Notes: generated by a model not told the origin, from the letters alone. A DNA stretch of 55,225 nt from Patescibacteria group bacterium (GCA_042568575.1 JBHPIO010000009.1:1-55225); one strand, 5' to 3'. Positions 20,615 to 41,879 are shown, counted from the stretch's first letter. Numbers and translations are program-made.

Positions 20615-20736
20615 TTTTGGATTTGTTAAAATGCTACCATGAGTATTTATATCATAATTTGTTTTAAAATCTTATTGCTTGAAAGTCAAAATGTTTACTG
20701 TCTTGAAAGCTAAAAAAAAATGACAAAGGCATGTTC

Positions 20737-20834
20737 ATTCTTTAACATCTGCCCGACTTTTATCAAGAATAGATAGAAATTCTGAAACGAAAAGTTGCGC
20801 TTGTTACGATCGTTGACAAAATGAACTACTTGAA
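20737..20834 (+). promoter_or_regulatory. Leader of GC-rich unit A: boxA-like motifs and 5' arm of long-range stem
   Basis: ATTCTTTAACA (20737-20747), GATCGTTGACA (20808-20818), then GAACTACTTGAA (20823-20834), complementary to 22000-22011. Confidence 0.55.
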
Positions 20835-20964
20835 ATAAACAACAACCATCCAATAAGGAGGTGAAACATGGACGGATGATTCAAAGTTGCAGAGCAATGA
20901 GTTTGGCAATGTACATGCATTTCGTTGAGCCATGGTGGCTTGGCGAAAAAGGAGAAAACGAAGA

Positions 20965-22008
20965 ATGTTACGTAAGACAACACTTATGGTGGCCGTGATC
21001 GGCCTATTTCTATTTGCCGGCACGGCGAAGGCGGATTTTCCGCCCGCACAGGGTCAAGCTGAAGATGTCGTGCTTTACGACTTTGGCTTGCAAATGCCCG
21101 AGAGCGTGACCACGGACTACTATGGCAACGTGTACGTGGGCCTGTTTATGTCAGGCATGTACGGCGAGATCATGGTGGTGGATCCGGATACGGGCACTTC
21201 ACAGGTTTATGAGCAATTCGACCTTGCTCTTCAGATGTGCGCGCCTGGTCAGGCTGCCGGAGTCGCAGGGATTTGGATTCATCCGTTTACACGGACGATG
21301 TATGCCAACGTGAACACATGCGATCCTGCGACCAAGGGAGTCTACAAGATCCCGAACGACGGAAGCGCACCAGTGTTGCTTTCGACGGCGCCGGTTCCCG
21401 CACTGTTCAACGGCATCGTGAAACGCGGCAACATGCTCTACAGTACGGACTCTTTCTCGATGACTGGAGCCGTGTATGCGACGCCCGTCGATGGGTTCGG
21501 CGCTCCCGCGGAAGTACTCGTAGAGCACCCGCTCATCGCGTTTGACCCGACGATTCTGCCTCCACCTGGTATTCCCTTTATGCCGGGAGCAAACGGCATC
21601 CAGAAGTACCATGGCGATTTGTACATCGGGCATTCCGGGAAGAACATCATCATCAAGGTTCCGCTTTCGGGATACTGCACAGGAATCACGGTTGGCGAGC
21701 CGGTTTGGCACGTGGACGCCCATGGCGTGGACGACTTCGCATTCGACTGGCGCGGCAACATCTATTTCACCAACGATCCCTTCAACGAGTTGATCAAAGT
21801 GACGCCGAACAACGTGTCCACGTTGCTCCTCGATGAGAATGATGGCATTAATGGCTCCACGGCGGCAGCGTTCGGTCGGCTTTGGGACAGAGAAGTTCTG
21901 TTCTTTACCAACGCGGCCTTCCCGTTCATGCCGCCGCCCTACAACAACGGCCAACCGCCGAGTCTGATGGCGTACGGCAACGATATAGGAGGTTATTGGT
22001 TCAGGTAG
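20965..22008 (+). CDS. Secreted SMP-30/gluconolactonase-like beta-propeller protein (GC-rich)
   Basis: Signal peptide (..GTAKA); PESV...GNVYV, FNGIV, GANGIQ, GVDDFAFD..GNIY, TAAAFG blades; SD AAGGAG upstream of ATG 20965. Confidence 0.75.
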   Translation: MLRKTTLMVAVIGLFLFAGTAKADFPPAQGQAEDVVLYDFGLQMPESVTTDYYGNVYVGLFMSGMYGEIMVVDPDTGTSQVYEQFDLALQMCAPGQAAGVAGIWIHPFTRTMYANVNTCDPATKGVYKIPNDGSAPVLLSTAPVPALFNGIVKRGNMLYSTDSFSMTGAVYATPVDGFGAPAEVLVEHPLIAFDPTILPPPGIPFMPGANGIQKYHGDLYIGHSGKNIIIKVPLSGYCTGITVGEPVWHVDAHGVDDFAFDWRGNIYFTNDPFNELIKVTPNNVSTLLLDENDGINGSTAAAFGRLWDREVLFFTNAAFPFMPPPYNNGQPPSLMAYGNDIGGYWFR

Positions 22009-22027
22009 TTCGAGTCCGAAGCAAGCA

Positions 22028-22141
22028 GCTTCCCTCTAGTTTGATCTTTGCACTTTAGGATCCTCGAGGATCTTAGGGTGATAAAGTCCTGGCCGGAAGC
22101 AGTCGTGCTGCGCATTTCATGTGTAGCACGACGTTATTTTT
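22028..22141 (+). terminator. Long 3' hairpin followed by intrinsic terminator
   Basis: GCTTCC/GGAAGC enclosing CACTTTAGGATCCT/AGGATCTTAGGGTG; then GTCGTGCTGCGCAT/ATGTGTAGCACGAC plus T-rich tail. Confidence 0.65.
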
Positions 22142-22152
22142 AAACGATTTAT

Positions 22153-23997
22153 CTATCGTGAAACAGTAAAGTAAGTAGGATCTTCGCCATGCAAGATTTG
22201 ACCTTTATAATAGGCATAATTCGCATCTTTTGCGTATAAGCCAGAAATGTATTCAAAGGACGCACTGTCCGCTTCTTCAATTATCACTTCATCATAATAG
22301 GCGTGATCTTTGTCTTTCGCATAATGGTTTATGTATTCCACAAATGAACCTGCGTCGAATTGTTCGGCGATTATGTGATTTTCATAGTTTTTATAAACAT
22401 GATCTTTGTCACGAGAATAATAACTTCCAAGATACTCAAATGTTTCTGGGTCGACTCCTTCAATTATGACGTCATCTTTCATCATTACTAAGCCATTATA
22501 AACATGATCTTTATCTTTATAGTAATATTTGCCAATCAATTCAAACGTTGCTATATCAACATCATCTATTATGCCTCCATGTAGATAAGCATGATTTTTG
22601 TCCCTGGCAAAACCATATTCAAGGTACATGAAACTTCCTAAATCAACATCTTCTATAGGGAAGGCTTCATAAAAAATACTGTTTGCATCTCTAGAGTATC
22701 CAAAACCAAGCACTTCAAAAGTATTTGGGTCAGCGCCAGCAATAAACACGTTTCCAAAATAGACATAGTTGTTATCTTTTGAGTAATGCCAAACTCCGTA
22801 TGTATCAACCACTTCGTAAGAATCCGGATCAGCTTCCTCCATTACTTCTCCCCACATAAATATATGATCTTTATCTTTCGCATATCTAATATAGGTATCC
22901 GATAATGCCTCGAAAGTTTCTGGATCTGCTTCTTCTATTACTGATGCCATTTTTTCAATCATCAGAACATTGTCTTTGTCTGCCACATAAGCTTCTGGAT
23001 AATAAGGAGGAGATGAATGATAAAGAACCTCGAAAGTGATCGGGTCTAGACCATATTCGTCGGTAAGATTGAAATAATCAGTTTCATACGCTTCTCGTTG
23101 AGCTTGGTAAACAGAATTTTTGTCTTTAAAAAACATGCCTTCTACATGCTCAAAAGTAGCTGCATCCACTTCTTCAGCAATTCCAGAAAATGGGTGATAA
23201 ACAGTGTCAGCATCTTTTACAAAAGGATCGCCAAGAACCTCAACGGTTGCAGGATCGATTTCTGGGAGAATAGCTCCGGTTACATTAAACACAGAATTTT
23301 TATCCTTTAAATAAAAGTTTTTCACATACTCAAGTGTATCAAGATCCATTTCGCTTCCAGAAGCAGCAATGCTTTGTTTTACATAATTGTATGTGAACGA
23401 TCTATAAAGAACCTCGGCAACGTATCCACGTGAAGTTGAAGTTCCGTAATCTGTTTCGTTAACAATATTATGCTGTCTTCCGTAGTTCATTGAAGGTCCA
23501 TACCAAGTTGAGTCTTCTTCTGTTTCCCATTCATAAATTCTTGAAAGAACGGTCGAAAGTTCACCTAATTTGATTGGCTCAGCCGGTCCGTAATTTCCTA
23601 CTAATTCTCCATCAGCATATCCACTTACGTAACCTTTCTCTTTTGCCCAACACACGTATGGTGCAAACCATTCGTCTGTTACATCAGGGAAACAATCGTG
23701 GTATTTCGATGATGCAAGATCTCTTTCATTAGAAGCAATTCTAAACATTAAAGTTGCAAACTCAGCTCTGTTAAGTTCATCGTCTGGGCGGTATGTCATC
23801 GAAAAATTGCCGTCTTCGTCTTTTTGATCCATGTCACCAAAAACAACTTCATGTGTTCGAAAATAGTCGATAGCAGTGAAATATTCGTGATCTTTCGGCA
23901 CGTCTTCGAATTTCCATCCACCACCTCCGGCGAGGGCTGCTTGTGGAATTAAGAGTAAAAGTGTGCTTGCAATTAATAAGCGGCTCAAAAATTTCAT
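22153..23997 (-). CDS. SLH-domain surface protein with DKNYY repeats
   Basis: Signal peptide; FEDVP, LNRAEF, FPDV..WFAPYV SLH motifs; many YxKDKxxVY / ADPxTFE repeats. Confidence 0.85.
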   Translation of the reverse strand: MKFLSRLLIASTLLLLIPQAALAGGGGWKFEDVPKDHEYFTAIDYFRTHEVVFGDMDQKDEDGNFSMTYRPDDELNRAEFATLMFRIASNERDLASSKYHDCFPDVTDEWFAPYVCWAKEKGYVSGYADGELVGNYGPAEPIKLGELSTVLSRIYEWETEEDSTWYGPSMNYGRQHNIVNETDYGTSTSRGYVAEVLYRSFTYNYVKQSIAASGSEMDLDTLEYVKNFYLKDKNSVFNVTGAILPEIDPATVEVLGDPFVKDADTVYHPFSGIAEEVDAATFEHVEGMFFKDKNSVYQAQREAYETDYFNLTDEYGLDPITFEVLYHSSPPYYPEAYVADKDNVLMIEKMASVIEEADPETFEALSDTYIRYAKDKDHIFMWGEVMEEADPDSYEVVDTYGVWHYSKDNNYVYFGNVFIAGADPNTFEVLGFGYSRDANSIFYEAFPIEDVDLGSFMYLEYGFARDKNHAYLHGGIIDDVDIATFELIGKYYYKDKDHVYNGLVMMKDDVIIEGVDPETFEYLGSYYSRDKDHVYKNYENHIIAEQFDAGSFVEYINHYAKDKDHAYYDEVIIEEADSASFEYISGLYAKDANYAYYKGQILHGEDPTYFTVSR

Positions 23998-24072
23998 AGT
24001 TTGAAAGTGAATTATATAGTGATCAGATTATAACATGAGTTAAATTTGTAACTATGGGGGAGCCAATTTTGA

Positions 24073-24196
24073 TTGACATTTGCCCGTATTCTGTCGTACG
24101 TTATGACCTCATGCATTGATTTAGCATGAGTTGTACTTTGACAACGCAAGCACCCGCTTTGGCGGGTATGCTTGTCAACGTGGATTTCAAAGTTTT
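24073..24196 (+). promoter_or_regulatory. Promoter and structured leader of GC-rich unit B
   Basis: TTGACA (24073-24078); hairpin CTCATGC/GCATGAG; boxA-like GTACTTTGACAA (24133-24144); hairpin GCAAGCACCCGC/GCGGGTATGCTTGT; 24179-24196 complementary to 27640-27658. Confidence 0.6.
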
Positions 24197-24318
24197 TTAC
24201 ATAATGTGTGATTTTTAAACCCGAGGATTCTGAAGGATTAGAAAGGAGTTTGGGAAAGGCTAGGTAGAGGAAAGAAGAGGATTCTGAACACAAACCCGAA
24301 CTGGAGAGGAAGTGACAC

Positions 24319-26301
24319 GTGCAGTTTGATCGAGACATTGGAATTATTGGTGCTGGCGTTATCGGACATGGCTTGGCCTACCCGATTGCGACGGCTATTG
24401 CGATGAGTGGTGGCAAGGTCATCATTCATGACACCAACCCGGAAGCGCTCGAGCGCGGCATCTCCGGCGCCCTGGGCTATGCGGCCAAGGGCTTGATGCG
24501 AGGCAAGATCTCGAAGAGGACGGCCGACGCCATCAAGCAGGCGATCGTGCCTGCGAAGAGCCTCGAGGACTTCCGCAGCTGTGGTTTGGTCATCGAGGCC
24601 GCCGTGGAGGATCTGAATATCAAAAAACAGATCCTGGCGGGCGTTGAGGAGGTAGTTACGCCGGATTGCCTGATCGGCTTTACGACTTCGGGCCTGTGTC
24701 GGAGCTGGATCGTCGAGGGGGCGAAGCATCCCGACCGGGGATGCGTCATCCACCCCTTCTTCCCGGCCTGGCGGAGCCCGCCGATCGAGGTCGTGGGCGT
24801 GGGCAAGTACTTCAAGCAGATGTACGATCTCATGATCCACCTGGGCAAAGTGCCCATCAAGGTCGCAGACGTTCCCTGTTTCGCGGCGGACCTCATCTTC
24901 TGCTCGTACGAGGCCGAAGCCATTCGGCTCGAGCAGGACGGAGTTGCGACGCGCTATCAGGTGGACCTCATCGCCAACAAGCACATCGGCGGTGGCGGGC
25001 CCTACCTGGTGCACGACCTGACCGGGGGCAACCCGCTCACCATCCACTGCCTGGAGCTCCTGCAGGAGCATCATCAGAGCGAGTGGTTCCAGACGCCCCA
25101 GCTCCTCATCGACCAAGGCACGGAGAAGTGGCTCGAGCATCAGCCTGATCCCGAAAAGGACGCCTACGACGCGGCCACGGAGAAGGCCGTCATGGACCGG
25201 CTACATGCGGTCCTGCTCGGCACCACCTTCCATGCTCTGGACAACGAGCTGTGCGCGCCCGGTGATCTCGACTGGCTCACCAGGATGGCCCTCGGTTTCA
25301 AGACCGGGCTTCTGGAGATGGGCAACAATATGGGTATGGGGCAGGTTCGAGACCTGTGTCAGGCCTACGCCAAGGACAACCCGGGTTTCCCCACGTCGAA
25401 GACGATCGATGGTGGCACGAGCTACCACTTCTTCAAGGACACGACCTGGGAAGTTTCGGAAGACAACGGTATCGCCGTGGTCACTGTTCGCCGTCCGGAG
25501 GCTGCCAACGCTCTGCGGAAGAACGTCATCCAGGAGCTGGATGCGATCTTCTTGGAGCTCGCGGCGGACGATGCCGTCAAGGGCATCATCTTCACCGGCT
25601 TCGGTGGCATGATCGCTGGGGCGGACATCATGGAGCTTGCCTCCCTGAAGACGCCCGCGGAGTGTGCCGAGTTCCCGAGGGAGGGGCAAATGCTCACCCT
25701 CGCCATGGAACAACTGAACAAGCCGATCGTGGCTGTGATCGACGGTGTCGCCTTTGGTGGTGGCGCTGAGATGGCCATGGCCTGCTGGGCACGAGTTCTC
25801 GGTCCCAAAGCTCTCATCGGACAACCCGAGGTGAAGCTCGGAATCGTTCCGGGCTATGGCGGGACCCAACGTCTGCCACGCCTGGTCGGTATGGAGCGCT
25901 CTCTCGAGATGCTTCGTCTCGGCAATCCCATCAAGGCAACGACTGCCGTCGAGTGGGGCTGGGCGAGCAAGTGCTCGCCCGATCCCATGAGGGAGGCCGA
26001 GTTGATGATCCGAAATCACTGTGATCCGGACAACGACTTCGTCCTCGAACCGCTATCCCACGATCCCATGAAGCAAGTTCCGATCGAGATCCCTGAGCTC
26101 GACATCGGGCATCTGAGCCTGGTGATCGATCGCATCCTGTTGGACACGGTGTTCGAAGGATTGGGGTTGACCATGGAGCATGGTCTCGAGTTTGAAGCCA
26201 ACGCCTGCGGCCGGTGCAAGGAAACCCAGGACATGGGTATCGGCATGGCCAACTTCATCCAGAACAAGGGCAAGGCGCCTGCCGTGTTCGTCAACAAATA
26301 G
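24319..26301 (+). CDS. 3-hydroxyacyl-CoA dehydrogenase / enoyl-CoA hydratase fusion (GC-rich)
   Basis: GIIGAGVIG Rossmann, VIEAAVEDL, HPFFP....IEVV; C-terminal crotonase GGGAE...GQPEVKLGIVPGYGGTQRLPRLVG; GTG start after GGAGAGGA. Confidence 0.9.
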   Translation: MQFDRDIGIIGAGVIGHGLAYPIATAIAMSGGKVIIHDTNPEALERGISGALGYAAKGLMRGKISKRTADAIKQAIVPAKSLEDFRSCGLVIEAAVEDLNIKKQILAGVEEVVTPDCLIGFTTSGLCRSWIVEGAKHPDRGCVIHPFFPAWRSPPIEVVGVGKYFKQMYDLMIHLGKVPIKVADVPCFAADLIFCSYEAEAIRLEQDGVATRYQVDLIANKHIGGGGPYLVHDLTGGNPLTIHCLELLQEHHQSEWFQTPQLLIDQGTEKWLEHQPDPEKDAYDAATEKAVMDRLHAVLLGTTFHALDNELCAPGDLDWLTRMALGFKTGLLEMGNNMGMGQVRDLCQAYAKDNPGFPTSKTIDGGTSYHFFKDTTWEVSEDNGIAVVTVRRPEAANALRKNVIQELDAIFLELAADDAVKGIIFTGFGGMIAGADIMELASLKTPAECAEFPREGQMLTLAMEQLNKPIVAVIDGVAFGGGAEMAMACWARVLGPKALIGQPEVKLGIVPGYGGTQRLPRLVGMERSLEMLRLGNPIKATTAVEWGWASKCSPDPMREAELMIRNHCDPDNDFVLEPLSHDPMKQVPIEIPELDIGHLSLVIDRILLDTVFEGLGLTMEHGLEFEANACGRCKETQDMGIGMANFIQNKGKAPAVFVNK

Positions 26302-26315
26302 ACAAGGGGGACATC

Positions 26316-27611
26316 ATGGAGAGACTACAGAAGCTCCTTCAAGAAGATCCGATCGTCATCGTCGGCGAACCCAAGCGCCTTCCGCGCGCCGACATCCTCG
26401 AGAACAACAAGGCCCCCGGCCTGTTCTCACACTTCACCACCAACCAGCTCGGTGGACTCGCACTCGCGGCCACTCTCAAGGCCACTCCTCAGATCGAGCC
26501 ATCCATGCTCGGCCATGTGGTGATGGGGAGAGCGGATCATGCCCACCGGGACTGCATCTACGGCGCCCGTGGCATGGCCCTGGAAGCCGGCATTCCGCAT
26601 GACGTGCCCGCTTGCACCGTGCAGCGCATCTGTGCAAGCGGTGTTCAAGGCATCATTACGGCTACAACCCAGGTGGTTGTTGGCGACCATCTTCCGGGAC
26701 GACCATATGTCGCGGCTGGCGGAGCCGAGTCCATGCAGTATCCGCACAAGCTGCCTGGTATGCGCGGACGCAAAGTGGGTGGTGCCACCGTCAAGTTCGG
26801 CCCGATTGACGCGAGCAAGCTCCCCAAGGGGACGTATCTCCAGGACGCGATGTTCATGGGGCTCTTCGATCCTCGCGCCGGCATGGCCATGGCCAACACG
26901 GCCGAAGAGCTGGCTCGCCGGTTCAACATCACACGGGAGCAGGCGGACGTGTTCGCCCATCGCTCTCACAAGCTGGCCATCACTGCCCGTGACAACGGAT
27001 ATTTCGACGACGAAATCGAGCCGGTCACCAACCTGCACGGCGACATCGTCGAGAACGACACTCACATCCTAGATGACATCTCCATGGGTGGGCTGGCCGG
27101 TCTACGCGTGGCCTTCGAAGAGGGCGGTATCATTACTCCCGGCAACGCCTCCGCAGTCGTGGACGGTGCGGCAGCAATGATCATGTGCCCGCTGTCCGCC
27201 GCCGACGAAGTCGGCGCCAAACCCATCGCTCGCATCGTGAGCTGGGGTATCGCCGGCTGTGATCCCAAGATAATGGGCTGGGGTCCGGTTCCCTCCACGC
27301 GCTTCGCGTTGGAAAACGCCGGACTCAAGGGCAACGACATCAGCACGGTGGAGCTCAACGAAGCCTTTGCACCGCAGGCCCTCGCCTGCATCATGGACTT
27401 CGAGAAGGAGTTCGGCATCGATCCCGAGAAGGTCAACCCGATGGGCAACGCTATCGCCATGGGCCATCCCCTCGGCGCCACCGGTGCCATCCTCACCGTC
27501 ACTGCCGCCCACCGCATGCGCAGACTCAATCAGCGCTACGGCCTCATCACCATGTGCGTCGGAGGAGGACAAGGTGTCTCGCTCATCATCGAGAACGCCG
27601 AGTTCATGTAG
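26316..27611 (+). CDS. Thiolase (acetyl-CoA C-acyltransferase) (GC-rich)
   Basis: RICASG, NEAFA, GHPLGATG, TMCVGGGQG; start set at ATG 26316 after AAGGGGG. Confidence 0.92.
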   Translation: MERLQKLLQEDPIVIVGEPKRLPRADILENNKAPGLFSHFTTNQLGGLALAATLKATPQIEPSMLGHVVMGRADHAHRDCIYGARGMALEAGIPHDVPACTVQRICASGVQGIITATTQVVVGDHLPGRPYVAAGGAESMQYPHKLPGMRGRKVGGATVKFGPIDASKLPKGTYLQDAMFMGLFDPRAGMAMANTAEELARRFNITREQADVFAHRSHKLAITARDNGYFDDEIEPVTNLHGDIVENDTHILDDISMGGLAGLRVAFEEGGIITPGNASAVVDGAAAMIMCPLSAADEVGAKPIARIVSWGIAGCDPKIMGWGPVPSTRFALENAGLKGNDISTVELNEAFAPQALACIMDFEKEFGIDPEKVNPMGNAIAMGHPLGATGAILTVTAAHRMRRLNQRYGLITMCVGGGQGVSLIIENAEFM

Positions 27612-27639
27612 GCGCATAAGCGCGCCGGGCTTCCCCCTC

Positions 27640-27778
27640 AAAACTTTGAACATCCACGGACATCAAAACGTGATTGATTACGTTTTCCACACCGCACTTC
27701 TAGAGACGTTCGTGGATGAACGCAGTTACACACACCTTTTAGGAGGCCTGGCGCACTGATTTTGCGCGAGGCCTCTTT
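27640..27778 (+). terminator. Structured trailer and terminator of unit B
   Basis: 27640-27658 pairs with the leader; local stems 27651-27661/27708-27718 and 27665-27674/27677-27686; terminal hairpin GAGGCCT..AGGCCTC-TTT (27743-27778). Confidence 0.6.
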
Positions 27779-27793
27779 CCCCTATCCAAAATT

Positions 27794-27837
27794 CCTCCCG
27801 GGAGGAGCTTGACAAATCCCTGCAATATGCGTAAATT
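27794..27837 (+). promoter_or_regulatory. Palindrome CCTCCCGGGAGG next to a sigma70 promoter
   Basis: CCTCCCGGGAGGAGCTTGAC (27794-27813) is identical to 53902-53921; TTGACA-17-TAAATT. Confidence 0.65.
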
Positions 27838-27975
27838 CTATATCCATGGCGTTGCGGGCATTTAGATTTGCTCAAGGTGTTCCGTAATGTCTGAAAATTG
27901 ACATTACGTTTTCGCTTTTAAACGCTAAACAACAAACGGGGCTTTAGTCCCTACAGATATGAAGGAGAACTTTCA

Positions 27976-29211
27976 ATGGCTGAACACACACACAAACAAC
28001 TGTTCCCATGGGGCTTTCTAGGTTCAATGGTTCTGATGTCGCTGCTTCTGATCGTTATGAGATATGGAAGCGACAAGTTCGCGTTTGTGGACTACTACGA
28101 CTACCACCACGCGGCAGAGCTGATTCGCAATGGCGAGAGCCCGTACGATGGTCCCAAGGCAGACGAACTCGCAAAGCGCGATAAAGTCCACGCGATCAAG
28201 GACAGCCACTACATCTACCCGCCTCCGCTTGCGATCGTCTTGGTGCCGCTCTCCTACCTGCATCCGAAAAACGGAGGCATGTTCTGGCATCTGTTGAGCG
28301 CAATTATGCTTCTGCTTGCCTTGGAACGCCTCACGAGATATTCGCAGACCAAGAGGCAGGAACTACTCATATTGCTATCCTTCTTTTTCGTTCCGACACT
28401 GTTCACTCTTTATGTCGGACAGGTGAACACCATCGTTCTTGCCTTAATTGTCTTGGCGATGGACGACTCACTGAGCAAAGAAAACCGTGATATTCGCGTT
28501 GGCGTATGGATCGGTCTTGCTGCGCTCATCAAGGTGAGTCCGATCCTGTTGCTCGCCGTATTTCTCTTTCGGGGAAAATGGCGGGTCATTCTGGTCTCCG
28601 TCGCGGTTGTTGCGGTTGGCTTTGCTATCAGCGAGCTGATCGTCCGAGGCAGCACTTCGCAGTTCTTCAACGACGTGATGCCCTCGTTGTGGCACAACCA
28701 GAACCACCACGCGCACCCGGCAAACCAGTCGTTCCGCGGCTGGATCCTTCGCCTCTTCACCCCAAACGATTGGACGAATCCGGTGCGGAATTACTCCGAG
28801 ACGATTTACATGTTCGTTGGCTCGATCAACGCCTTTATCGTTTGCATCACTATGTTGATGCTCTGGATTTCCAGGAAATCAGACTTCACAAGGAGGCAAG
28901 CCTATCTGGAAGCGGGCCTGGTCGTATCGTGCATCGTTCTGATCTCGCCCCTCGGGTGGGATCACACTTTCATCCTACTCCTCATTCCAGCAGCAGCGCT
29001 CTGGCGCATCGGCTACCACTGGCTGGTGATCGCCATGTATGGCCTCATGATCGTGCAGCGCGCGATCTTCATCCCGTTCGCCGACAATCCCTCAAGCTTC
29101 CCCTTCCTCGCGAAGCATCCAGTACTGTCCTGCAGCGGACTGCTGGGTGGTTGGTTCATCTTCTTCACCTGTGCCCATATTCTGGGTGACGTCAAAAAAA
29201 GCAAAACGTAA
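27976..29211 (+). CDS. GT87/DUF2029 (GT-C) membrane glycosyltransferase (GC-rich)
   Basis: DY..Y...A...G.SPY, YIYPP, GQVN, GLAALIKVSP, NQS, SPLGWDH; SD AAGGAG. Confidence 0.88.
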   Translation: MAEHTHKQLFPWGFLGSMVLMSLLLIVMRYGSDKFAFVDYYDYHHAAELIRNGESPYDGPKADELAKRDKVHAIKDSHYIYPPPLAIVLVPLSYLHPKNGGMFWHLLSAIMLLLALERLTRYSQTKRQELLILLSFFFVPTLFTLYVGQVNTIVLALIVLAMDDSLSKENRDIRVGVWIGLAALIKVSPILLLAVFLFRGKWRVILVSVAVVAVGFAISELIVRGSTSQFFNDVMPSLWHNQNHHAHPANQSFRGWILRLFTPNDWTNPVRNYSETIYMFVGSINAFIVCITMLMLWISRKSDFTRRQAYLEAGLVVSCIVLISPLGWDHTFILLLIPAAALWRIGYHWLVIAMYGLMIVQRAIFIPFADNPSSFPFLAKHPVLSCSGLLGGWFIFFTCAHILGDVKKSKT

Positions 29212-29219
29212 CGTCAACG

Positions 29220-29252
29220 GCGTCGTTCCCCTAAAAAAGGAGCGGCGCTTTT
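29220..29252 (+). terminator. Intrinsic terminator
   Basis: GCGTCGTTCC...GGAGCGGCGC-TTTT. Confidence 0.7.
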
Positions 29253-29260
29253 GACCCTAT

Positions 29261-30562
29261 CTACATTTCTGCCGCATACCATTCTGCAGAATCAACAATT
29301 ACATCTCCAATAAAATGTGTGAAGTGCAGATGCGATCCAGTTGCAATTCCTGTTGATCCCATCAACCCAATCAAGTCACCTTTATTAACAACTTGTCCTT
29401 CCTCAACTTTTAACGCGGACATATGAAGGTACATCGTGAACACGTTATGACCATGATCAATTATGATCGTATTACCATATGACATTGTTTCATCCGCCAA
29501 TGTCACAATTCCACTGTTGGAAGCGTAAATTTCAGTTCCTTCAACATTCCCATAATCAAGCCCAAAATGAGATCCTGAATATGCTCCGTTTATATATAAC
29601 TTGTCTCCAAATCCAAGAGTAATAACACCTTCTGTTGGAACAATAAATTCACCTTCCCAAAGCTGTTCCTCGCGTGGGTTACTTTTTGCAGCGTTAATCA
29701 TTGTCCAAGTATTGTCTTGTTGCGTCTGCCCAAATAGCTCAGTTTTTGTTTCCGGAAGCGTGAACGAAACAACCGTATAATTTTGTTCACCCACATCAAT
29801 CGTCACCTCAACCTGCTCAGACTCATCTTTGTTAAGCGTTAAACTCAGCGTTTTCGCGCCAGCATCTTTAGTCCGATGCAAGCCAACAAACGCTCGCAAA
29901 TAATCTTTTTCTCCAATTTGCGTAAACTCTTCAAGTTCCGCAGCTCTCGTAATCACAATCTGGGCTTCATCAAAATTAATATTTCGATCCGGTCTCATAA
30001 AACCATCTGGGTATCCTTTAAAAATCTCAGCCTTCATGGTTTGATTTATATATTCATAAAAACGATGATCTTCAGGGACGTCTTCAAACGAAGGGACGTC
30101 TTCTAATTTCTCCAAAGGATCGAATGCTCGCACAAGAATTTTCGCAATTTGACCTCTTGTTATTGGAGTGTATGGACGAAACTTGCCGTCCTCGTATCCA
30201 TGAATTATATCGAGCGCGGAAGCTTTGCTCACATATTGATAGAACGGATTCCCCGCTGGTACATCAGGGAATTGCGTAGCTTGAAAAGTATCAACATCTC
30301 CAAAATCTTCATTATCAAACATTAATTTTAAGAATTCTCCACGATTTATGGTCTCATCCCAATTCGGCGCATCAACGACTTCGTAAAATTTAACAATCTT
30401 TCCATTAAAAGAAGCATTCACCGATTCGATGTCGTCTTTGGCAATTTTAATCTCCAAGGTTTTGCCCTGCAAAATTTCATCCTCTACATAAACGCTCGCC
30501 GCATTCGCAGAAAACGGAATCAAAAATATCCCAATACCTACAATGATTTTTACGATTTTCAT
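29261..30562 (-). CDS. SLH-domain M23 peptidase
   Basis: SLH repeats (FPDVP, GYEDGKFRP, ITRGQ); HFGLD, YLHMS, TGSHLHF. Confidence 0.9.
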   Translation of the reverse strand: MKIVKIIVGIGIFLIPFSANAASVYVEDEILQGKTLEIKIAKDDIESVNASFNGKIVKFYEVVDAPNWDETINRGEFLKLMFDNEDFGDVDTFQATQFPDVPAGNPFYQYVSKASALDIIHGYEDGKFRPYTPITRGQIAKILVRAFDPLEKLEDVPSFEDVPEDHRFYEYINQTMKAEIFKGYPDGFMRPDRNINFDEAQIVITRAAELEEFTQIGEKDYLRAFVGLHRTKDAGAKTLSLTLNKDESEQVEVTIDVGEQNYTVVSFTLPETKTELFGQTQQDNTWTMINAAKSNPREEQLWEGEFIVPTEGVITLGFGDKLYINGAYSGSHFGLDYGNVEGTEIYASNSGIVTLADETMSYGNTIIIDHGHNVFTMYLHMSALKVEEGQVVNKGDLIGLMGSTGIATGSHLHFTHFIGDVIVDSAEWYAAEM

Positions 30563-30642
30563 GAAAAAAGTTTACCACGAACCGCAACTTTAAAATAGTT
30601 GTGTGTTATTGAAAGTGAAGGCATAATTAAAAATGACCTCTC

Positions 30643-34659: not shown

Positions 34660-34782
34660 GATTTAATGTTAAAAGTAGGTGATTTTTATACCAAATAACG
34701 TCAAGATATGCAAATAATTTTGAATCGAGGAAACTTCTGATATAATTTTTCCGAGGGCGCTTATTTATTAAAGCTTGAATTT

Positions 34783-35928: not shown

Positions 35929-35943
35929 TGCAATAATGCACGT

Positions 35944-36552: not shown

Positions 36553-36582
36553 AATCAATATTGCAACTTAACCAAAAATCTC

Positions 36583-37158: not shown

Positions 37159-37176
37159 TTACTAACCACTTTAAAT

Positions 37177-37746: not shown

Positions 37747-37748
37747 TA

Positions 37749-38270
37749 CTATCTCTCGAAAAGTAGAAATTCGTAGGAGATGTTTTCGTCTTCACCTGTT
37801 CCTAGCTGCGTGACGGTTGAAAAATAATGAGGGACATCGGGGTAGAACGCATCGCAATCAAATGTTTTGCGGACTTTTGTTATGTAAAGTCCTGTGAGGT
37901 CTACGTTGTCTATTGTGCTTTTGTAAATCGAAGCACCACCGATAATATAGATAGTTTCGATATCTTCATCAGCTGATTCGAGTGCGTCTTCAAGGCTTTT
38001 AAAAACAGTTGCACCTTCCACTTTGTAATCCGGATTTCGGCTAAGGACAATATTTAGGCGACCTTTAAGCGGTCTATGTTTATCAGGGATCGATTCCCAT
38101 GTAGTGCGTCCCATAATCACCATATTCTTTTTGTCGAGATCTTCTGTTTCGGTTGTGGTTCGTTGGAAAAATTTCAAGTCACCAGGAAGATGCCATGGAA
38201 GTTTGCCATCTTTTCCAATGCCATTTTTCTCATCAGTTGCTACAACGTGGTAGATTTTATGTTCGATCAT
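37749..38270 (-). CDS. folA: Dihydrofolate reductase
   Basis: [46 protein letters not shown]. Confidence 0.95.
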
Positions 38271-39079
38271 ACTGCGATTTCAAATTTAATAAATGCATCG
38301 TGCTCATATCCGGTGAGCTCAAAGTCTTCAAGGGTGATTTCGTCAAAAGGTTTCTTTACCAGTTTGAGTTGTGGGAGTTTATGTGGAGTTCTTGTAAGTT
38401 GCTCCGTAAGCCCTTCAACATGATTTTTATAAATATGCGCATCTCCGAGTGTGTGAACAAAAATTCCAGGCTCCAAATTACATTCTTGAGCCATCATAAT
38501 AAGAAGCGCCGAATAACTTGCGATATTGTATGGAACGCCAAGAGCAATATCTGCAGAACGTTGATAAAGCTGACAATCAAGCCGTCCATTAACTACATAA
38601 AACTGGAAGAAAGCGTGACACGGAGGAAGAGCCATACGCGGAAGATCGGCAGGATTCCATGCGCTCACAATAATTCTTCGTGAAGTTGGATTGTTTTTTA
38701 TTAGATCGATAGCCTGAGCAATTTGATCTACGTGAGTTTTTTTACATGTGCCATCGTCGTCACAAGTGTACTTGTCCCATTTCCGCCATTGATAGCCGTA
38801 CACAGGTCCAAGTTCTCCGTTTTCGTCAGCCCACGGATTCCAGATTTTTGTGTGTGGCATCAATCCATCGTTGATATTAGTTGCACCTTTCAAAAACCAT
38901 AAAAGTTCACGGATTATATTATCTATGCTTACTTTTTTGGTTGTAACAAGTGGAAATCCGTCGCGAAGGTCGTATTTAGTTTGAGTTCCGAATACAGAAA
39001 GGATTCCGGTTCCGGTTCGATCCGGCTTCTCTTCGCCGTTTTCAAGGACATGTTTTACTAGGTCGAGGTATTGCTTCAT
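38267..39079 (-). CDS. thyA: Thymidylate synthase
   Basis: [24 protein letters not shown]. Confidence 0.97.
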
Positions 39080-39212
39080 TGGGTTTGTTTAGGGTTATGG
39101 TGCAGAGAAATTCTATCTACAATACCTAATGATGTAAAGAAATTTGATATAAAAATCTAAGGGGGAACGGGACGGTAGGGTGAAAGGAGTGTCCCAAAGG
39201 AGGTGGATATGG

Positions 39213-39917
39213 CTAGCCGCGCTGGAGGGCGAGTGTGATGCTCAAGACGGCGTTCTCGGCTGAGCGAACAGTGTCTCCCTTATGCTGAATTGTGCTGAAT
39301 GCTCCGAGGAATTCTGGGCATAAACGCATGTCTTCTATGGCTTCCCCTGTGAGGACTTCGATGAATGGCACGGGTTCGTTGAGTGCGCTGAGTACTCTTT
39401 CTACCTCTGAGGGGTGGTTGATGAGCAAAGCCGGCAGGAATTTGTATGCGGCTGGGTCAGCCTGCATTTTGGCTGCGAGCTTTGCCGTTGCTTTCCATAG
39501 ATTTGTTGTTCGACTTGTTGAGTCTATCCTCCCGGCGATGTAACCCATTTCGACTGCAAGGAGCATGAACGCATCCCACCATTCGCACAAATGCTTTCGC
39601 ATTGCTCCAGTGAATGGAATACCCATCTCTGTGAGCCAGGTTGTGAATGGGAATTTTTTTATCACTTCGAGAAGCTTTGGGAGTTGTTCTGCCCTCTCCT
39701 CAGAGAAGGCGGAATGTGTCATCCCAATCTCAAATCCATCAAGTATAAGCTTGAACTGCTCGCCACCGATGGTGACGAGCAGTCGCTCCATAGCTTTCAT
39801 GAGCTCCGGAACCTCCAGTCCTTGTAGGGCGGTTCCTATATCTTCAATCGTCAGAGATTTCCCTCCAACACTAATCTGGATTGCTTCGCGAATAAGACTC
39901 TTGGTATCGCTGGTCAT
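39213..39917 (-). CDS. Hypothetical protein (GC-richer unit D)
   Basis: Open frame; start set at ATG 39917 after AGAAAGGA; no family recognised. Confidence 0.65.
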   Translation of the reverse strand: MTSDTKSLIREAIQISVGGKSLTIEDIGTALQGLEVPELMKAMERLLVTIGGEQFKLILDGFEIGMTHSAFSEERAEQLPKLLEVIKKFPFTTWLTEMGIPFTGAMRKHLCEWWDAFMLLAVEMGYIAGRIDSTSRTTNLWKATAKLAAKMQADPAAYKFLPALLINHPSEVERVLSALNEPVPFIEVLTGEAIEDMRLCPEFLGAFSTIQHKGDTVRSAENAVLSITLALQRG

Positions 39918-39982
39918 TGTGTGGATCCTTTCTGTTTGGCACGCACAGCAACTATAACAAGTGCTATGTGTGACGTGTTTTA

Positions 39983-40021
39983 TACCGTCCCACCTCAAAT
40001 TTTTAAAATATGTCAAAGATC
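39983..40021 (-). promoter_or_regulatory. Leader of unit D: boxA-like motif and 5' arm of long-range stem
   Basis: GATCTTTGACA (40011-40021 minus), then GGTGGGACGGTA (39983-39994 minus), complementary to 39166-39177. Confidence 0.5.
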
Positions 40022-40056
40022 GTGAAAGACTATATTCTCCCACTATCTCAAGAATG

Positions 40057-40142
40057 TGTCAATGTATCTCGACAATGTATAAAGAGAGGTTGAAAATAGC
40101 ATGTAGATAAGTTAAAATATAACTGTCGACAAATCTTGACAG
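40057..40142 (+). promoter_or_regulatory. Promoter of TrmB paralog 2 bracketed by two inverted repeats
   Basis: TGTCAA-N6-TCGACA (40057-40074), TTGAAA-17-TAAAAT (40090-40118), TGTCGA-N6-TTGACA (40124-40141). Confidence 0.6.
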
Positions 40143-40148
40143 CAGAAC

Positions 40149-40886
40149 ATGAAAACATTTCTTAAAAAACTAGGGGCAAATGATAAGGAAGCGGATACAT
40201 ATCTGGTTTTGCTTGAGCTTGGACCTCAACCTGTTTCTGTGGTTGCGAGACGCATAGGGGTGCCTCGTTCAACAATGTATGTGATTGCAGATAATCTCAA
40301 AAAACTTCATCTTATTGAAAAGTTCCAAAGGGGTGGAGTGATGTTTGTAAAAGCTGTTTCGGCTAAAGATATTCGTAGTGTGATTCGTTTGCGTGAAAGG
40401 GAAATTGAGAATTTGAATGATATTTATAAATCAACTTTGCCAAATCTTGAGTCGATCGAGAACAAACTATCAATAACACCAGTAATAAAAATTTATGAAG
40501 GAGAAGATGAAGTTAAAAAAATGTATGAAATAGTTTTGAGTGAAAAAGATATTTGTTCTTTTTTTAATCCGCAGCGTGTTAAGCAAAAAATGCCGGAATA
40601 TCATTTTAAAATACCCGAAACATTAAAGGAAAACCAATGGAAGGCTCGGGAGCTATTGGTTGAATCCCCGGAAGCTGATGAGTATAAAAAACTTTATAAT
40701 TCAGACTTCCATCAAATAAAAATTTTACCAAAAAATGTTGACTTCCAGTCCGATACGATTATCGGTAAAGATCGATTTTTTCAGGTTGCATACGGAGAGC
40801 AGGATATAGTGGCAACAGAAATTGACAGTCAGTCTCTTACGCAAACTCAACAGGCTGTATTCGAAATTATGTGGAATAGCATTTAA
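40149..40886 (+). CDS. TrmB-family transcriptional regulator
   Basis: LGANDKEADTYLVLLELGPQPVSVVARRIGVPRSTMY; PVIKIYEG; paralog of 6610-7335. Confidence 0.85.
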   Translation: MKTFLKKLGANDKEADTYLVLLELGPQPVSVVARRIGVPRSTMYVIADNLKKLHLIEKFQRGGVMFVKAVSAKDIRSVIRLREREIENLNDIYKSTLPNLESIENKLSITPVIKIYEGEDEVKKMYEIVLSEKDICSFFNPQRVKQKMPEYHFKIPETLKENQWKARELLVESPEADEYKKLYNSDFHQIKILPKNVDFQSDTIIGKDRFFQVAYGEQDIVATEIDSQSLTQTQQAVFEIMWNSI

Positions 40887-40895
40887 TCATTTCTT

Positions 40896-41114
40896 ATGAA
40901 GAAAAAACTAAGGAAAAATCTTCCATCATCATATCGTTTTACGCGAACTGTTTTTGGGATCATTATGATTGCCGCACTCTTTTTCGATTGGGGTAAATAT
41001 GTGGTTGCCGTGCTTGGAGCGTTGTTTCTAATTTCTGCTACAACAGGATTTTGTATTACTTGCTGGTTGTATGAAAAAGTTACCGGGAAGTGCGAAGATT
41101 GTGAGAATATTTGA
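40896..41114 (+). CDS. DUF2892 (YgaP-like) small membrane protein
   Basis: R..R...G, two TM, TGFC...LY. Confidence 0.7.
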   Translation: MKKKLRKNLPSSYRFTRTVFGIIMIAALFFDWGKYVVAVLGALFLISATTGFCITCWLYEKVTGKCEDCENI

Positions 41115-41281
41115 CGGCTTTTCTATTTCATATATAATTTATAAGTCTTTTGTCGAATATAGCAATAAAAGGCTGTGTCGCGTTTGTACAAATTGTCATA
41201 CGTGGCATATTTGGTCTTTGAAAGGTAACAAGTTTATACAACGCAGCGTGGGTGTTTTCCCACAGAAAGCAGGCATCGATT

Positions 41282-41743
41282 ATGCAGACCGATTATCTTG
41301 AAGCTGTTAAGGTGCTAATTCCTCAAGACAAACTCGAGAGATGGTGCAAAGTGATGTGCCAGGCAGCGGAGCTCGAATGGGGAGATCTGACGGAGGATGA
41401 TCAGACTCTCGTGTTCCAGTTCGGGATAGCGCAGAAGGTTGAACGTGAGCTTTCCCAGGTCAGAGAGGAGAATCCAGGTATCGCTGCTAAGTTGGAGTCG
41501 CTTATGACGGCAGTGCTGAGCGATGAACCTGATCTCGAAGGAAATGAGCTCGTTAAGTTTGCGCAAGAGAAAGAAAAAGCGCAAGGAACTCTTTCACGGT
41601 GGTCAACCGGCAAGCATGCGATGTGGTATCTCGCAATCTTGGGTGAGTTGGTCGTCGACATATTTGGTCATCCCGACGCTGATGAGCGAAGAGAGCTCCT
41701 TGATAGGATTGATATGCTGATGCAAATGATTACGTCCTGCTAG
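41282..41743 (+). CDS. Hypothetical protein (GC-richer unit E)
   Basis: Open frame, helical acidic composition; start set at ATG 41282; leader GGTCTTTGAAA (41213-41223). Confidence 0.65.
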   Translation: MQTDYLEAVKVLIPQDKLERWCKVMCQAAELEWGDLTEDDQTLVFQFGIAQKVERELSQVREENPGIAAKLESLMTAVLSDEPDLEGNELVKFAQEKEKAQGTLSRWSTGKHAMWYLAILGELVVDIFGHPDADERRELLDRIDMLMQMITSC

Positions 41744-41879
41744 TTTTGTTATCCAGTCAAAGCCACACCTTCCACCGGGCTACACAATATATGTGCGTAA
41801 TAGCAAAATATTGTGAGCTCGGTTCCCAGAAATATTAAAATTTAATCTTGCCATTTTTTGCTCGCGTGATACACTCAAG

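What the first reader, a model, noticed from the sequence alone, without database searches (positions are those of the whole stretch)
20737..41822. Five GC-rich gene units each closed by a leader/trailer complementary stem, most with a boxA-like motif: rRNA-operon-like architecture around mRNAs
Seen: all five compositionally distinct units have a leader segment complementary to sequence at or just after their own stop. A: 20823-20834 / 22000-22011. B: 24179-24196 / 27640-27658. C: 27898-27919 / 29197-29217. D (minus): 39983-39994 / 39166-39177. E: 41213-41232 / 41745-41764. The arms differ in sequence between units, so structure rather than sequence is shared. Four of five have a boxA-like motif upstream of or within the 5' arm. 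I did not notice this around the few AT-rich genes I checked, but did not test them exhaustively. Established: in rrn operons boxA recruits NusB/NusE/NusA/NusG/SuhB, which tether the leader so it can pair with the trailer into the RNase III processing stem. Inference: this genome may package a class of mRNAs as end-paired (possibly processed, stabilised or circularised) RNAs. The alternative is DNA/ssDNA-level cassette ends. I know of no description of this for protein-coding genes.
Basis: partly seen in the sequence, partly recalled or inferred. Interest (0 to 1): 0.92.

Follow-up and report, generated by a model that had tools for sequence, protein, structure and literature searches.

The report
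Messenger RNAs built like ribosomal RNA operons
Some GC-rich accessory genes of this tiny AT-rich bacterium carry an rRNA-style leader and a stretch before the gene that can pair with one just after its stop; related genomes keep that pairing while its sequence changes, which suggests end-paired mRNAs.

Summary
All five leader/trailer complements exist at the stated coordinates. Taken singly, B (18 bp, 1 bulge) and C (20 of 21) exceed chance (p about 0.004). D is borderline (p 0.03-0.08 Watson-Crick only, 0.002 with G-U). A and E do not exceed chance.

Across the genome, 4 of 25 GC-rich units have strong arms against 1 of 87 AT-rich stand-alone genes. Most GC-rich units show none at this stringency.

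The decisive evidence lies outside the window. A GC-rich unit on contig C1 shares B's arm motif and sits in a syntenic slot. In 8 of 10 related genomes with a GC island there, the unit keeps a boxA-like box, a covarying leader hairpin, then a 10-17 nt arm complementary to sequence 0-90 nt after the stop. The arm sequences differ between genera, with both sides changed. A second gene family shows the same in two genera.

NusB and RNase III genes are adjacent. Rho was not found.

The boxA claim holds well for A (11 nt identical to the organism's own 16S boxA core), moderately for D and E, weakly for B, and not for C.

There is no RNA data. The reading is partly supported and looks like a new variant of the rrn leader-trailer architecture.

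The parts
20738..20748 (+). Unit A boxA-like box, TTCTTTAACAT
   Evidence: Identical over 11 nt to the core of the genome's own 16S-leader boxA, GTTCTTTAACATTTAGAG. TTCTTTAACA occurs 21 times in the genome on both strands. Its core PWM score of 17.4 exceeds all 282 control leaders. It overlaps a weak promoter-like -10.
20823..20834 (+). Unit A 5' arm
   Evidence: GAACTACTTGAA. Not above chance on its own: p 0.11-0.29. It is part of the closing helix in both the MFE and centroid folds.
20932..22008 (+). Unit A coding sequence: 358 aa, GC 0.56, GC3 0.68. Function unknown, with a weak ScyD/ScyE-like match.
   Evidence: No homologue in 150 genomes of the order.
22000..22011 (+). Unit A 3' arm, overlapping the stop codon
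   Evidence: TTCAGGTAGTTC.
22102..22132 (+). Terminator-like hairpin after unit A
   Evidence: 14-pair stem followed by a T-run.
24138..24178 (+). Unit B leader hairpin. The weak boxA-like CTTTGACAA at 24136-24144 overlaps its foot.
   Evidence: Read. The layout (hairpin, then arm) is the same as in the C1 slot unit.
24179..24196 (+). Unit B 5' arm
   Evidence: CGTGGATTTCAAAGTTTT. p 0.001-0.0045. Shares the motif GTGGAT(G)TYYAAA with the arms of the unit at C1:11953-13770.
24319..27611 (+). Unit B coding region: FadB-like 3-hydroxyacyl-CoA dehydrogenase/enoyl-CoA hydratase (24319-26301) and thiolase (ORF 26214-27611). GC 0.61-0.62.
   Evidence: Pfam and NCBIfam matches. The closest proteins are about 51% identical. 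Not found in the same-genus genome G001.
27640..27658 (+). Unit B 3' arm
   Evidence: AAAACTTTGAACATCCACG. It can also pair locally with 27705-27727 (pair I25).
27809..27837 (+). Promoter-like site of unit C
   Evidence: TTGACA, 17 nt, TAAATT; 10 of 12.
27898..27919 (+). Unit C 5' arm. It overlaps the 3' strand of a local hairpin at 27883-27908.
   Evidence: (I17). p 0.002-0.004. The part GUUUUCGCUUUU pairs with the trailer in the MFE and centroid folds.
27976..29211 (+). Unit C coding sequence: GT87-family glycosyltransferase, 411 aa, GC 0.53, GC3 0.70.
   Evidence: Pfam PF09594, 2.2e-36. Closest proteins are 54% and 50% identical. No homologue in 150 genomes of the order.
29196..29217 (+). 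Unit C 3' arm. It covers the last codons and the stop, and a terminal hairpin follows it.
40009..40019 (-). Unit D boxA-like box, ATCTTTGACAT
   Evidence: TCTTTGACATAT (12 nt) is shared with the box of the G002 slot unit, GCTCTTTGACATAT. A promoter-like site lies upstream at 40062-40034.
39983..40005 (-). Unit D 5' arm
   Evidence: UAAAAAUUUGAGGUGGGACGGUA. In the 21-nt alignment, 3 of the 4 non-Watson-Crick positions are G-U in the sense RNA. p 0.033 WC-only, 0.002 G-C weighted with G-U. Forms the closing helix in the MFE and centroid folds, with transcript z -4.25.
39213..39917 (-). Unit D coding sequence: 234 aa, GC 0.49. No family found.
   Evidence: About 50% identical homologues in 2 of 150 genomes of the order.
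39150..39177 (-). Unit D 3' arm
41213..41232 (+). Unit E 5' arm, containing the boxA-like GTCTTTGAAAG
   Evidence: Not above chance on its own. Forms the closing helix in the MFE and centroid folds. A promoter-like site lies at 41111-41138, 11 of 12.
41282..41743 (+). Unit E coding sequence: 153 aa from the ATG (163 from GTG 41252), GC 0.50. No family found.
   Evidence: No homologue in 150 genomes of the order.
41745..41764 (+). Unit E 3' arm
39081..41831 (.). Block holding D, a TrmB-like gene, a small ORF and E. It is absent from the same-genus genome G001, which has 243 bp there.
   Evidence: blastn of the thyA-DUF763 spacers.

Best explanation
A subset of the GC-rich accessory transcription units of this roughly 1.2-Mb, 38% GC genome is built like the organism's rRNA genes. 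The lineage is probably a Peregrinibacteria-type member of the candidate phyla radiation.

Proposed architecture: a sigma-70-like promoter, a boxA-like box, usually a leader hairpin, then a 10-23 nt 5' arm. After the coding region comes a complementary 3' arm at or within about 90 nt of the stop, then a terminal hairpin.

Proposed mechanism (inferred):
1. NusB/NusE bind the boxA RNA and keep the leader near the elongating polymerase.
2. The leader therefore pairs with the trailer as soon as the trailer is made, and the whole coding region is closed into a loop.
3. The helix either shields both mRNA ends from exonucleases or is cut by RNase III to give defined ends.

Because Rho was not found in the family, protection from Rho is unlikely to be the purpose.

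Shown here:
- The complementarity exists.
- It is enriched at GC-rich units.
- It is conserved with two-sided changes in two gene families.
- The boxA-like box and a covarying hairpin are conserved in one family's leader.
- nusB and rnc are present and adjacent.

Inferred: that pairing happens in RNA, that Nus factors bind, and what the helix does.

Within the window I rate B and C likely members, D probable, and A and E possible.
For: 1. Window arms. B p 0.001-0.0045, C 0.002-0.004, D 0.033 (WC only) and 0.002 (with G-U) against mismatched pairs.

2. Enrichment. Score 26 or more: 4 of 25 GC-rich units against 1 of 87 AT-rich stand-alone genes, null 1.3%. Score 28 or more: 3 of 25 against 0 of 87, null 0.63%.

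3. Syntenic slot. The unit at C1:11953-13770 has 14 of 14 arms. It lies between two conserved genes, and the slot is empty in G001.
- G002-G005 hold a GC-rich gene (0.49-0.77) there, in the same orientation.
- Each has a boxA-like box, a hairpin, then an arm complementary to the trailer: GTCTGTTTTCGA, TGTGTCTGTAAG, GGTGTCTGTA, TGTGACTGTTA, TGTGGATGTCTAAA.
- G006 has 10 of 10, G007 12 of 13, and G071, from another family, 16 of 17.
- In total, 8 of the 10 slot units with an island of 575 bp or more have arms. G013 is possible (14 of 16) and in G079 none was found.

4. Leader hairpin. 20 predicted pairs, 9 with two-sided changes among 5 sequences.

5. Second family. C12:5905-6534 has GAAAGTTAGTAATTTT / AAAATTACTAACCTTC. 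Its G006 homologue has TTGAAAG-aaca-GCGAAC / GTTCGC-aac-CTTTCAA at the same places, read by eye.

6. 16S leaders of 17 genomes of the order (16 relatives plus G000) carry boxA joined to a leader-trailer stem.

7. The slot boxA of G000, TTGATCCTTGAAA, equals the genus-specific 23S-leader box.

8. NusB and RNase III lie side by side in 5 of 5 genomes.

9. The arms form the closing helix in the MFE and centroid folds of A, C, D and E.

10. All slot units found lie in one orientation.
Against: - With G-U-tolerant scoring there is no genome-wide excess: cognate mean 22.79 against mismatched 22.65 for 956 ORFs. The other 21 GC-rich rows score 21.4 against 21.2.
- 20 of 25 GC-rich units show no arm at score 24 or more.
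- A and E are within chance.
- C lacks boxA.
- The boxA PWM enrichment (p 0.003 against 282 controls) falls to 0.09-0.25 when words containing TTGAC are removed.
- D's homologues in G116 and G120 do not consistently pair: scores 43 and 20.
- C's 5' arm and B's 3' arm each have a local pairing partner.
- Folding programs tend to close long RNAs with whatever best complement exists, so searches are partly circular.
- Slot arms of 10-14 bp are short for RNase III. This is my own knowledge, not tested here.
- B's arms share a sequence motif with the C1 unit's arms. Pure RNA pairing does not predict that.
- No transcript data exist for this organism here.
Confidence: 0.55

Rival explanations
1. The arms are inverted repeats that act in DNA. 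They could be sites for inverting a gene relative to an outside promoter, or the ends of a plug-in cassette by which foreign reading frames are captured into an existing leader/trailer module. Exchange between the repeats, not RNA folding, keeps them alike.
For: - B and the unrelated C1 unit share GTGGATGTYYAAA in the same outside-to-inside orientation. That motif occurs only 3 times in the genome, all at these unit ends. In 40 relatives it occurs 9 times in total, against 11 for a reversed control.
- A, B, C and E have no homologue in 40-150 relatives, yet they already carry arms.
- B and C have no G-U pairs.
- The genome does hold an integron-like recombination system elsewhere.
Against: - The slot unit stays at one syntenic place and in one orientation in all genomes where it was found.
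- Arm sequences differ between units, so one site-specific recombinase is unlikely.
- 10-14 bp is too short for homologous exchange (my own knowledge).
- The segment missing in G001 extends 133 and 168 nt beyond the arms.
- No direct repeats flank the arms (read).
- The one mismatch in A's arm and 3 of 4 in D's are G-U in the sense RNA.
Confidence: 0.2
2. For the five window units the complementarity is chance plus selection by eye. Only unrelated features are real: promoters, terminators and local hairpins.
For:
- There is no excess with G-U-tolerant scoring.
- Arms of 10-14 nt cannot be told from noise in a single sequence.
- The 5' arm of C overlaps a local terminator-like hairpin.
Against: - B and C each reach p of about 0.004 or better in two scoring schemes.
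- Three of the five window units reach p 0.05 or better under WC-only scoring, and four of five with G-C weighting.
- B's arm motif recurs at another GC-rich unit whose pairing is conserved across genera.
Confidence: 0.15
3. Each unit was inserted into the loop of a pre-existing palindrome, such as a bidirectional terminator, so the arms are the split stem of an old hairpin.
For: The arms are AT-rich, like the host genome. The units sit between genes. C's 3' arm supplies the last codons of the gene.
Against: - The empty slot in G001 has only a few bases between the two flanking genes and no hairpin.
- No unsplit copy of the B/C1 motif exists in G000 or G001.
- In the slot family the 5' arm is part of a conserved leader.
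Confidence: 0.05
4. The units are integron gene cassettes and the arms are halves of attC sites.
For: The genome has arrays of small genes separated by attC-like imperfect palindromes of about 120-130 nt, next to a tyrosine recombinase. These arrays account for most of the genome-wide excess of cognate inverted repeats.
Against: - Those arrays lie on contigs C12 and C1, not in the window.
- Their genes are AT-rich and lack promoters.
- The window units have their own promoter-like sites and leaders of 100-270 nt.
- The arms flank the gene instead of forming a local palindrome after it.
- No integrase-like match lies in contig C31.
Confidence: 0.03

Closest known systems
rrn operon leader: boxA / Nus-factor complex with the leader-trailer helix that RNase III cuts
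   Same: A boxA-like box sits in the leader, leader helices follow, and a leader strand pairs with a strand just past the 3' end of the enclosed product. The organism's own 16S gene shows this arrangement. NusB and RNase III are encoded. Tethering of boxA to NusB has been proposed to promote the leader-trailer helix (PMC10250234, passages read).
   Different: The enclosed product is a protein-coding mRNA with a Shine-Dalgarno site, not a stable RNA. The helices are shorter: 10-23 bp against roughly 28 bp in the 16S leader here. The boxes are looser variants (CTTTGAAA, CTTTGACA). Binding and cleavage are untested.
boxA in mRNA leaders: suhB, and a ParE-like toxin gene of Citrobacter koseri
   Same: A boxA sits upstream of a protein-coding gene and recruits Nus factors (PMC5725501, passages read).
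   Different: Those boxes lie within about 50 bp of the start codon and repress translation. The passages read describe no trailer complement. Here the box lies 60-200 nt upstream and comes with a leader-trailer complement.
5'UTR-3'UTR pairing in icaR (Staphylococcus aureus) and hbs (Bacillus subtilis) mRNAs
   Same: The two ends of one bacterial mRNA pair with each other, with effects on RNase action and stability (PMC3868564 and PMC5737220; search listing and abstract starts only).
   Different: By its title and abstract, the icaR pairing controls translation; that the 3'UTR pairs with the Shine-Dalgarno region is recalled. Here the arms lie 18-140 nt upstream of the start and do not cover the ribosome-binding site. 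No boxA is involved in those cases, as far as I recall.
Integron gene cassettes with attC sites
   Same: Units differ in sequence but share an inverted-repeat structure, and they carry accessory genes. Such arrays exist elsewhere in this genome.
   Different: An attC site is a local palindrome after the gene, and cassettes normally lack promoters. The window arms flank the whole gene and lie inside a promoter-bearing transcription unit.

Membership tests
rrn-type boxA plus leader-trailer architecture | boxA consensus in the transcribed leader | tested here: inconclusive
   The PWM was built from the 16S leaders of 16 relatives. A's core is identical to the 16S core over 11 nt and exceeds all 282 controls. 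D and E carry TCTTTGA variants. B is weak and C has none. Enrichment over 25 GC-rich units is p 0.003, but 0.09-0.25 once TTGAC words are dropped.
rrn-type boxA plus leader-trailer architecture | A leader strand complementary to a strand just past the 3' end of the product | tested here: met
   B, C and D are met. A and E are present but within chance. The pairing is conserved with two-sided changes in two other GC-rich gene families.
rrn-type boxA plus leader-trailer architecture | NusB and RNase III are encoded | tested here: met
   nusB at G000:C3:29296-29697 and rnc at 28592-29251, adjacent, in 5 of 5 genomes searched.
rrn-type boxA plus leader-trailer architecture | The enclosed product is a stable structured RNA | tested here: not met
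   B and C encode proteins with strong family matches. The slot genes have Shine-Dalgarno sites before their ATG. Rfam finds no RNA family in the window.
rrn-type boxA plus leader-trailer architecture | Nus-factor binding and RNase III cleavage of the helix | not testable with these tools
   No sequencing run could be listed.
Integron gene cassette | A local attC palindrome after the gene, and an integron integrase next to the array | tested here: not met
   The recombinase matches to TIGR02249 lie on C12, C6 and C2, and none on C31. The window arms are 0.5-3.4 kb apart.
Insertion sequence or MITE-like element with terminal inverted repeats | Repeats at the very ends of the inserted DNA, target-site duplication, a transposase | tested here: not met
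   The DNA missing in G001 reaches 133 and 168 nt beyond the arms of the C1 unit. No direct repeats are seen next to the arms. There are no transposase domains in the units.
Invertible DNA segment (inverton) | Both orientations occur, and a recombinase lies nearby | tested here: inconclusive
   All slot units found lie in one orientation. No reads were available to look for the other form.
icaR/hbs-type 5'UTR-3'UTR pairing | The 3'UTR pairs with the 5'UTR of the same mRNA; in icaR, with the ribosome-binding site | tested here: inconclusive
   End pairing is predicted. The arms lie at -140 to -18 from the start and do not cover the ribosome-binding site.

The most novel reading that the evidence does not exclude
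This Peregrinibacteria-like lineage has a class of mRNAs that are made and matured like rRNA. A boxA-bound Nus complex tethers the leader. A leader-trailer helix closes the whole coding region, and RNase III, encoded next to nusB, trims it. The result is long-lived, end-paired, possibly even circularised messages for GC-rich surface and accessory genes. The leader/trailer module also serves as a ready-made expression socket into which foreign reading frames are captured, which would explain why B carries the arm motif of the C1 unit.
Probability: 0.25. Interest if true: 0.9.

Novelty: new variant of a known kind. Interest (0 to 1): 0.78.

Why it matters
If the pairing occurs in RNA, the boxA/Nus and leader-trailer machinery, usually regarded as mainly devoted to ribosome biogenesis, is also used for protein-coding genes in a Rho-less candidate-phyla bacterium with a minimal genome. 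That would give:
- a testable model for how such cells express or stabilise foreign GC-rich genes;
- a natural case of whole-mRNA end pairing conserved by covariation;
- a possible reason why nusB and rnc are neighbours in this lineage.

It also offers a sequence signature (box, hairpin, arm, gene, arm) for finding such units in other uncultured bacteria.

Tried and rejected
- RNAduplex on all genes was too slow (timed out). It also gave long, loop-rich duplexes. I replaced it with local-alignment scores.
- G-U-tolerant scoring showed no genome-wide signal. Watson-Crick-only scoring did, but most of that signal came from integron-like cassette arrays, which I excluded from the controls.
- A tRNA as insertion target between thyA and DUF763 in G001: none found.
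- Rfam on the window: no family.
- Close donors or orthologues for B and C: the best proteins are 51% and 54% identical. One distant locus in a Kerfeldbacteria MAG is 41% identical. No covariation test was therefore possible for them.
- A, C, E and C23:30224: no homologue in 150 genomes of the order.
- D's homologues in G116 and G120 gave inconsistent pairing.
- G005's thyA-DUF763 spacer holds ordinary AT-rich genes.
- The Atlas look-up gave no function for D or E.
- Sequencing runs: none was listed and no RNA holder was listed.
- Literature searches. 'Candidate Phyla Radiation' with boxA gave 4 irrelevant papers. leader-trailer + mRNA + antitermination + protein-coding gave 0. Peregrinibacteria + genomic island + GC content listed no paper containing the word Peregrinibacteria. 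The passages found in the Peribacter paper mention no islands or transfer, and give 58.5% GC for that genus. Supplements were not opened.
- I did not build a covariance model or run the count of structure pairs on the leader-trailer helix, because no tool alignment can hold both arms. The arm table is read.

Full report
**What is in the window.**
The window is contig C31 of a 1.2-Mb, 31-contig genome with about 38% GC. All relatives in its order have 0.9-1.9 Mb genomes. One member of a 24-protein ThyA cluster that includes two relatives is named Candidatus Peregrinibacteria.

Five blocks of raised GC stand out:
- A: 20932-22008, 358 aa, no clear family.
- B: 24319-27611, a FadB-like dehydrogenase/hydratase plus a thiolase.
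- C: 27976-29211, a GT87 glycosyltransferase.
- D: 39213-39917 on the minus strand. The real start is ATG 39917, behind an AAAGGA ribosome site, not the GTG at 40043.
- E: 41282-41743.

The annotation rests.

The units are accessory:
- B is missing from the same-genus genome G001.
- A, C and E have no homologue in 150 genomes of the order.
- D has homologues in two.
- The whole block 39081-41831 is replaced by 243 bp in G001.
- The closest known proteins to B and C are only about 51-54% identical.

Each unit has its own promoter-like site and a long leader.

**Checking the observation.**
I scored the best local complement between the 250-300 nt before each start and the region around each stop, and compared it with mismatched leader/trailer pairs from the same genome.

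| Unit | WC-only p | Wider windows p |
|---|---|---|
| A | 0.11 | 0.29 |
| B | 0.001 | 0.0045 |
| C | 0.002 | 0.0038 |
| D | 0.033 | 0.079 |
| E | 0.23 | 0.48 |

With G-U allowed and G-C weighted, D reaches 0.002 and E 0.03.

With G-U-tolerant scoring the genome as a whole shows nothing. Cognate pairs average 22.79 against 22.65 for mismatched pairs over 956 ORFs. The other 21 GC-rich rows score 21.4 against 21.2.

**A confound found on the way.**
Watson-Crick-only scoring gives a genome-wide excess: score 28 or more in 11 of 956 against 2.2 expected. Most of these are small AT-rich genes in two arrays, C12:62-70 kb and C1:51.8-55.3 kb. The genes there are separated by attC-like palindromes of about 120-130 nt. 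A tyrosine recombinase lies beside the C12 array, and its best model is the integron integrase, below cut-off.

These integron-like arrays are a separate phenomenon. Leaving them out, and using only AT-rich genes that stand alone, 1 of 87 controls reach score 26 against 4 of 25 GC-rich units. At score 28 the counts are 0 of 87 against 3 of 25, with null rates of 1.3% and 0.63%.

So strong arms are enriched at GC-rich units, but 20 of 25 such units show none at score 24 or more.

**The decisive comparison.**
One GC-rich unit outside the window, C1:11953-13770, has perfect 14-nt arms, TGTGGATGTCTAAA / TTTAGACATCCACA.

The motif GTGGATGTYYAAA occurs only three times in the genome. Two occurrences are these arms and the third is B's 3' arm. 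B's 5' arm lacks one G. In 40 relatives the motif is at background: 9 hits against 11 for a reversed control.

The unit lies between two conserved genes, and in G001 the slot is empty. In four other genera the same slot holds a GC-rich gene in the same orientation (G002 to G005, GC 0.49 to 0.77). The proteins are low-complexity membrane proteins that share only a Cys-containing motif by eye, with no BLAST match between them.

All five leaders share the same layout:
- a boxA-like box: GTTCTTTGAAAAC, GTTCTTTGAAAAT, GCTCTTTGAAATA, GCTCTTTGACATA, GATCCTTGAAATT;
- a long hairpin, with 20 predicted pairs of which 9 show two-sided changes;
- immediately after it, an arm that is perfectly complementary to sequence 0-90 nt past the stop.

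| Genome | 5' arm | Complementarity |
|---|---|---|
| G005 | GTCTGTTTTCGA | 12 of 12 |
| G004 | TGTGTCTGTAAG | 12 of 12 |
| G003 | GGTGTCTGTA | 10 of 10 |
| G002 | TGTGACTGTTA | 11 of 11 |
| G000 | TGTGGATGTCTAAA | 14 of 14 |
| G006 | GGTGTCTGTA | 10 of 10 |
| G007 | GTCTGTTTTCGAT | 12 of 13 |
| G071 (another family) | TCTGTTTTCGTCACTGC | 16 of 17 |

G013 is possible (14 of 16) and G079 shows nothing. That makes 8 of the 10 slot units with an island of 575 bp or more.

Around a shared TCTGT core the flanking arm positions differ between genera, and the trailer follows each time. A 10-mer finding its complement within about 100 nt by chance is of the order of 1 in 10,000 per genome (my estimate). 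The pairing is therefore under selection or some other homogenising force.

A second family points the same way. C12:5905-6534 has 15 of 16 arms. Its 49%-identical homologue in G006 has an interrupted 13-bp complement at the same leader and trailer positions. One half is kept (TTGAAAG) and the other replaced on both sides. I read this by eye; the automatic score missed it.

**The rRNA parallel.**
In 17 genomes of the order (16 relatives plus G000) the 16S leader carries boxA (consensus TGTTCTTTAACATTTAGGGTG) running into a strand that pairs with the trailer.
- Unit A's TTCTTTAACAT equals the 16S core of G000.
- The G000 slot box TTGATCCTTGAAA equals the genus-specific box of its own 23S leader.

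A PWM built from the relatives' 16S leaders scores GC-rich unit leaders higher than the 282 AT-rich leaders that have their own intergenic region (p 0.003). The signal falls to 0.09-0.25 if words containing TTGAC, which look like -35 boxes, are dropped. The G002 slot unit does carry CTTTGACAT at the boxA position, so that filter may be too harsh.

NusB and RNase III genes are adjacent in 5 of 5 genomes. Rho was not found in G000 or in 9 members of its family, including complete genomes.

From the passages I read:
- Tethering of boxA to NusB has been proposed to promote the leader-trailer helix (PMC10250234).
- boxA elements do regulate a few mRNAs (PMC5725501).

**Mechanism proposed.**
Transcription starts at a sigma-70-like promoter. 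NusB/NusE bind the box and hold the leader near the polymerase. When the 3' arm emerges just past the stop, the leader-trailer helix closes the message. The helix then protects both ends or is trimmed by RNase III.

This is weak support, because the arms were chosen as the best complement. All steps after "the complementarity exists and is conserved" are inference.

**What does not fit.**
- Pure RNA pairing does not explain why B shares the arm motif of the C1 unit.
- It does not explain how units without relatives (A, B, C, E) already have arms.
- Capture of foreign reading frames into a copied leader/trailer module, or a DNA-level role of the repeats, would explain both. I keep that as the main rival.
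- Against it: the slot unit has a fixed place and orientation, the arms are unit-specific, the G001 deletion reaches beyond the arms, and no target duplications are seen.

**Verdict.**
I found no description of boxA plus a leader-trailer helix around protein-coding genes in the searches listed. The nearest known things are the rrn leader, boxA-regulated mRNAs and the icaR and hbs end pairing. I class it as a new variant of a known kind, of high interest, still lacking any RNA-level evidence.

Noticed in passing
G000 contig C12:62146-71456 (L039 covers 69156-72689) and contig C1:51316-56055: Integron-like arrays. Small AT-rich genes are separated by imperfect palindromes of about 120-130 nt with a shared core and ATATAAC / GTTATAT-type ends. 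A divergent tyrosine recombinase lies beside the C12 array at C12:70602-71456. Its best model is the integron integrase (103 + 97 bits, below the cut-off of 265), and model positions 183-236 are unmatched.
   Followed up: partly
G000 contig C3:28592-29697, and G004, G005, G006, G013: nusB lies immediately upstream of rnc (RNase III), on the same strand, in 5 of 5 genomes searched. Rho was not found in G000 or in 9 members of its family, including complete genomes.
   Followed up: partly
L096-L099, L085, L101, L102, L113 (slot between a conserved 125-aa gene and a roughly 260-aa gene): The same syntenic slot holds a strongly GC-rich gene (0.49-0.77) in an AT-rich genome in at least eight genomes. 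The gene evolves fast and encodes a low-complexity membrane protein. Why GC richness persists at one gene across genera is unexplained. Possibilities are repeated replacement, biased gene conversion or selection on the RNA.
   Followed up: partly
window 16874-30562: Most of this stretch has no DNA match in the same-genus genome G001 (a few short matches lie at 16.4-17.4 kb). It holds large SLH-domain surface proteins and units A-C. G001 also lacks the 762-aa gene at 30643-32931. It appears to be a hypervariable surface and accessory region.
   Followed up: partly
window 40149-41114: Between D and E lie an AT-rich TrmB-like regulator gene (40149-40886) and a 72-aa ORF with a predicted membrane stretch and C-terminal cysteines (40896-41114). 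Both are inside the block that G001 lacks.
   Followed up: no
G000 contigs C10:5630 (+) and C15:1694 (-): These are the second and third best matches in the genome to the 16S-derived boxA matrix (scores 21.5 and 20.3, after the 16S leader at 30.3). What they precede was not examined. The C15 site overlaps a CGTGGATG word like the one in B's arms.
   Followed up: no
G000 contig C23:30167-31975 (L083, L132): A GC-rich 583-aa gene with no family and no homologue in 150 relatives has a near-perfect boxA core (ATCTTTAACATT) 57 nt before its start. No detectable leader/trailer arm was found.
   Followed up: partly
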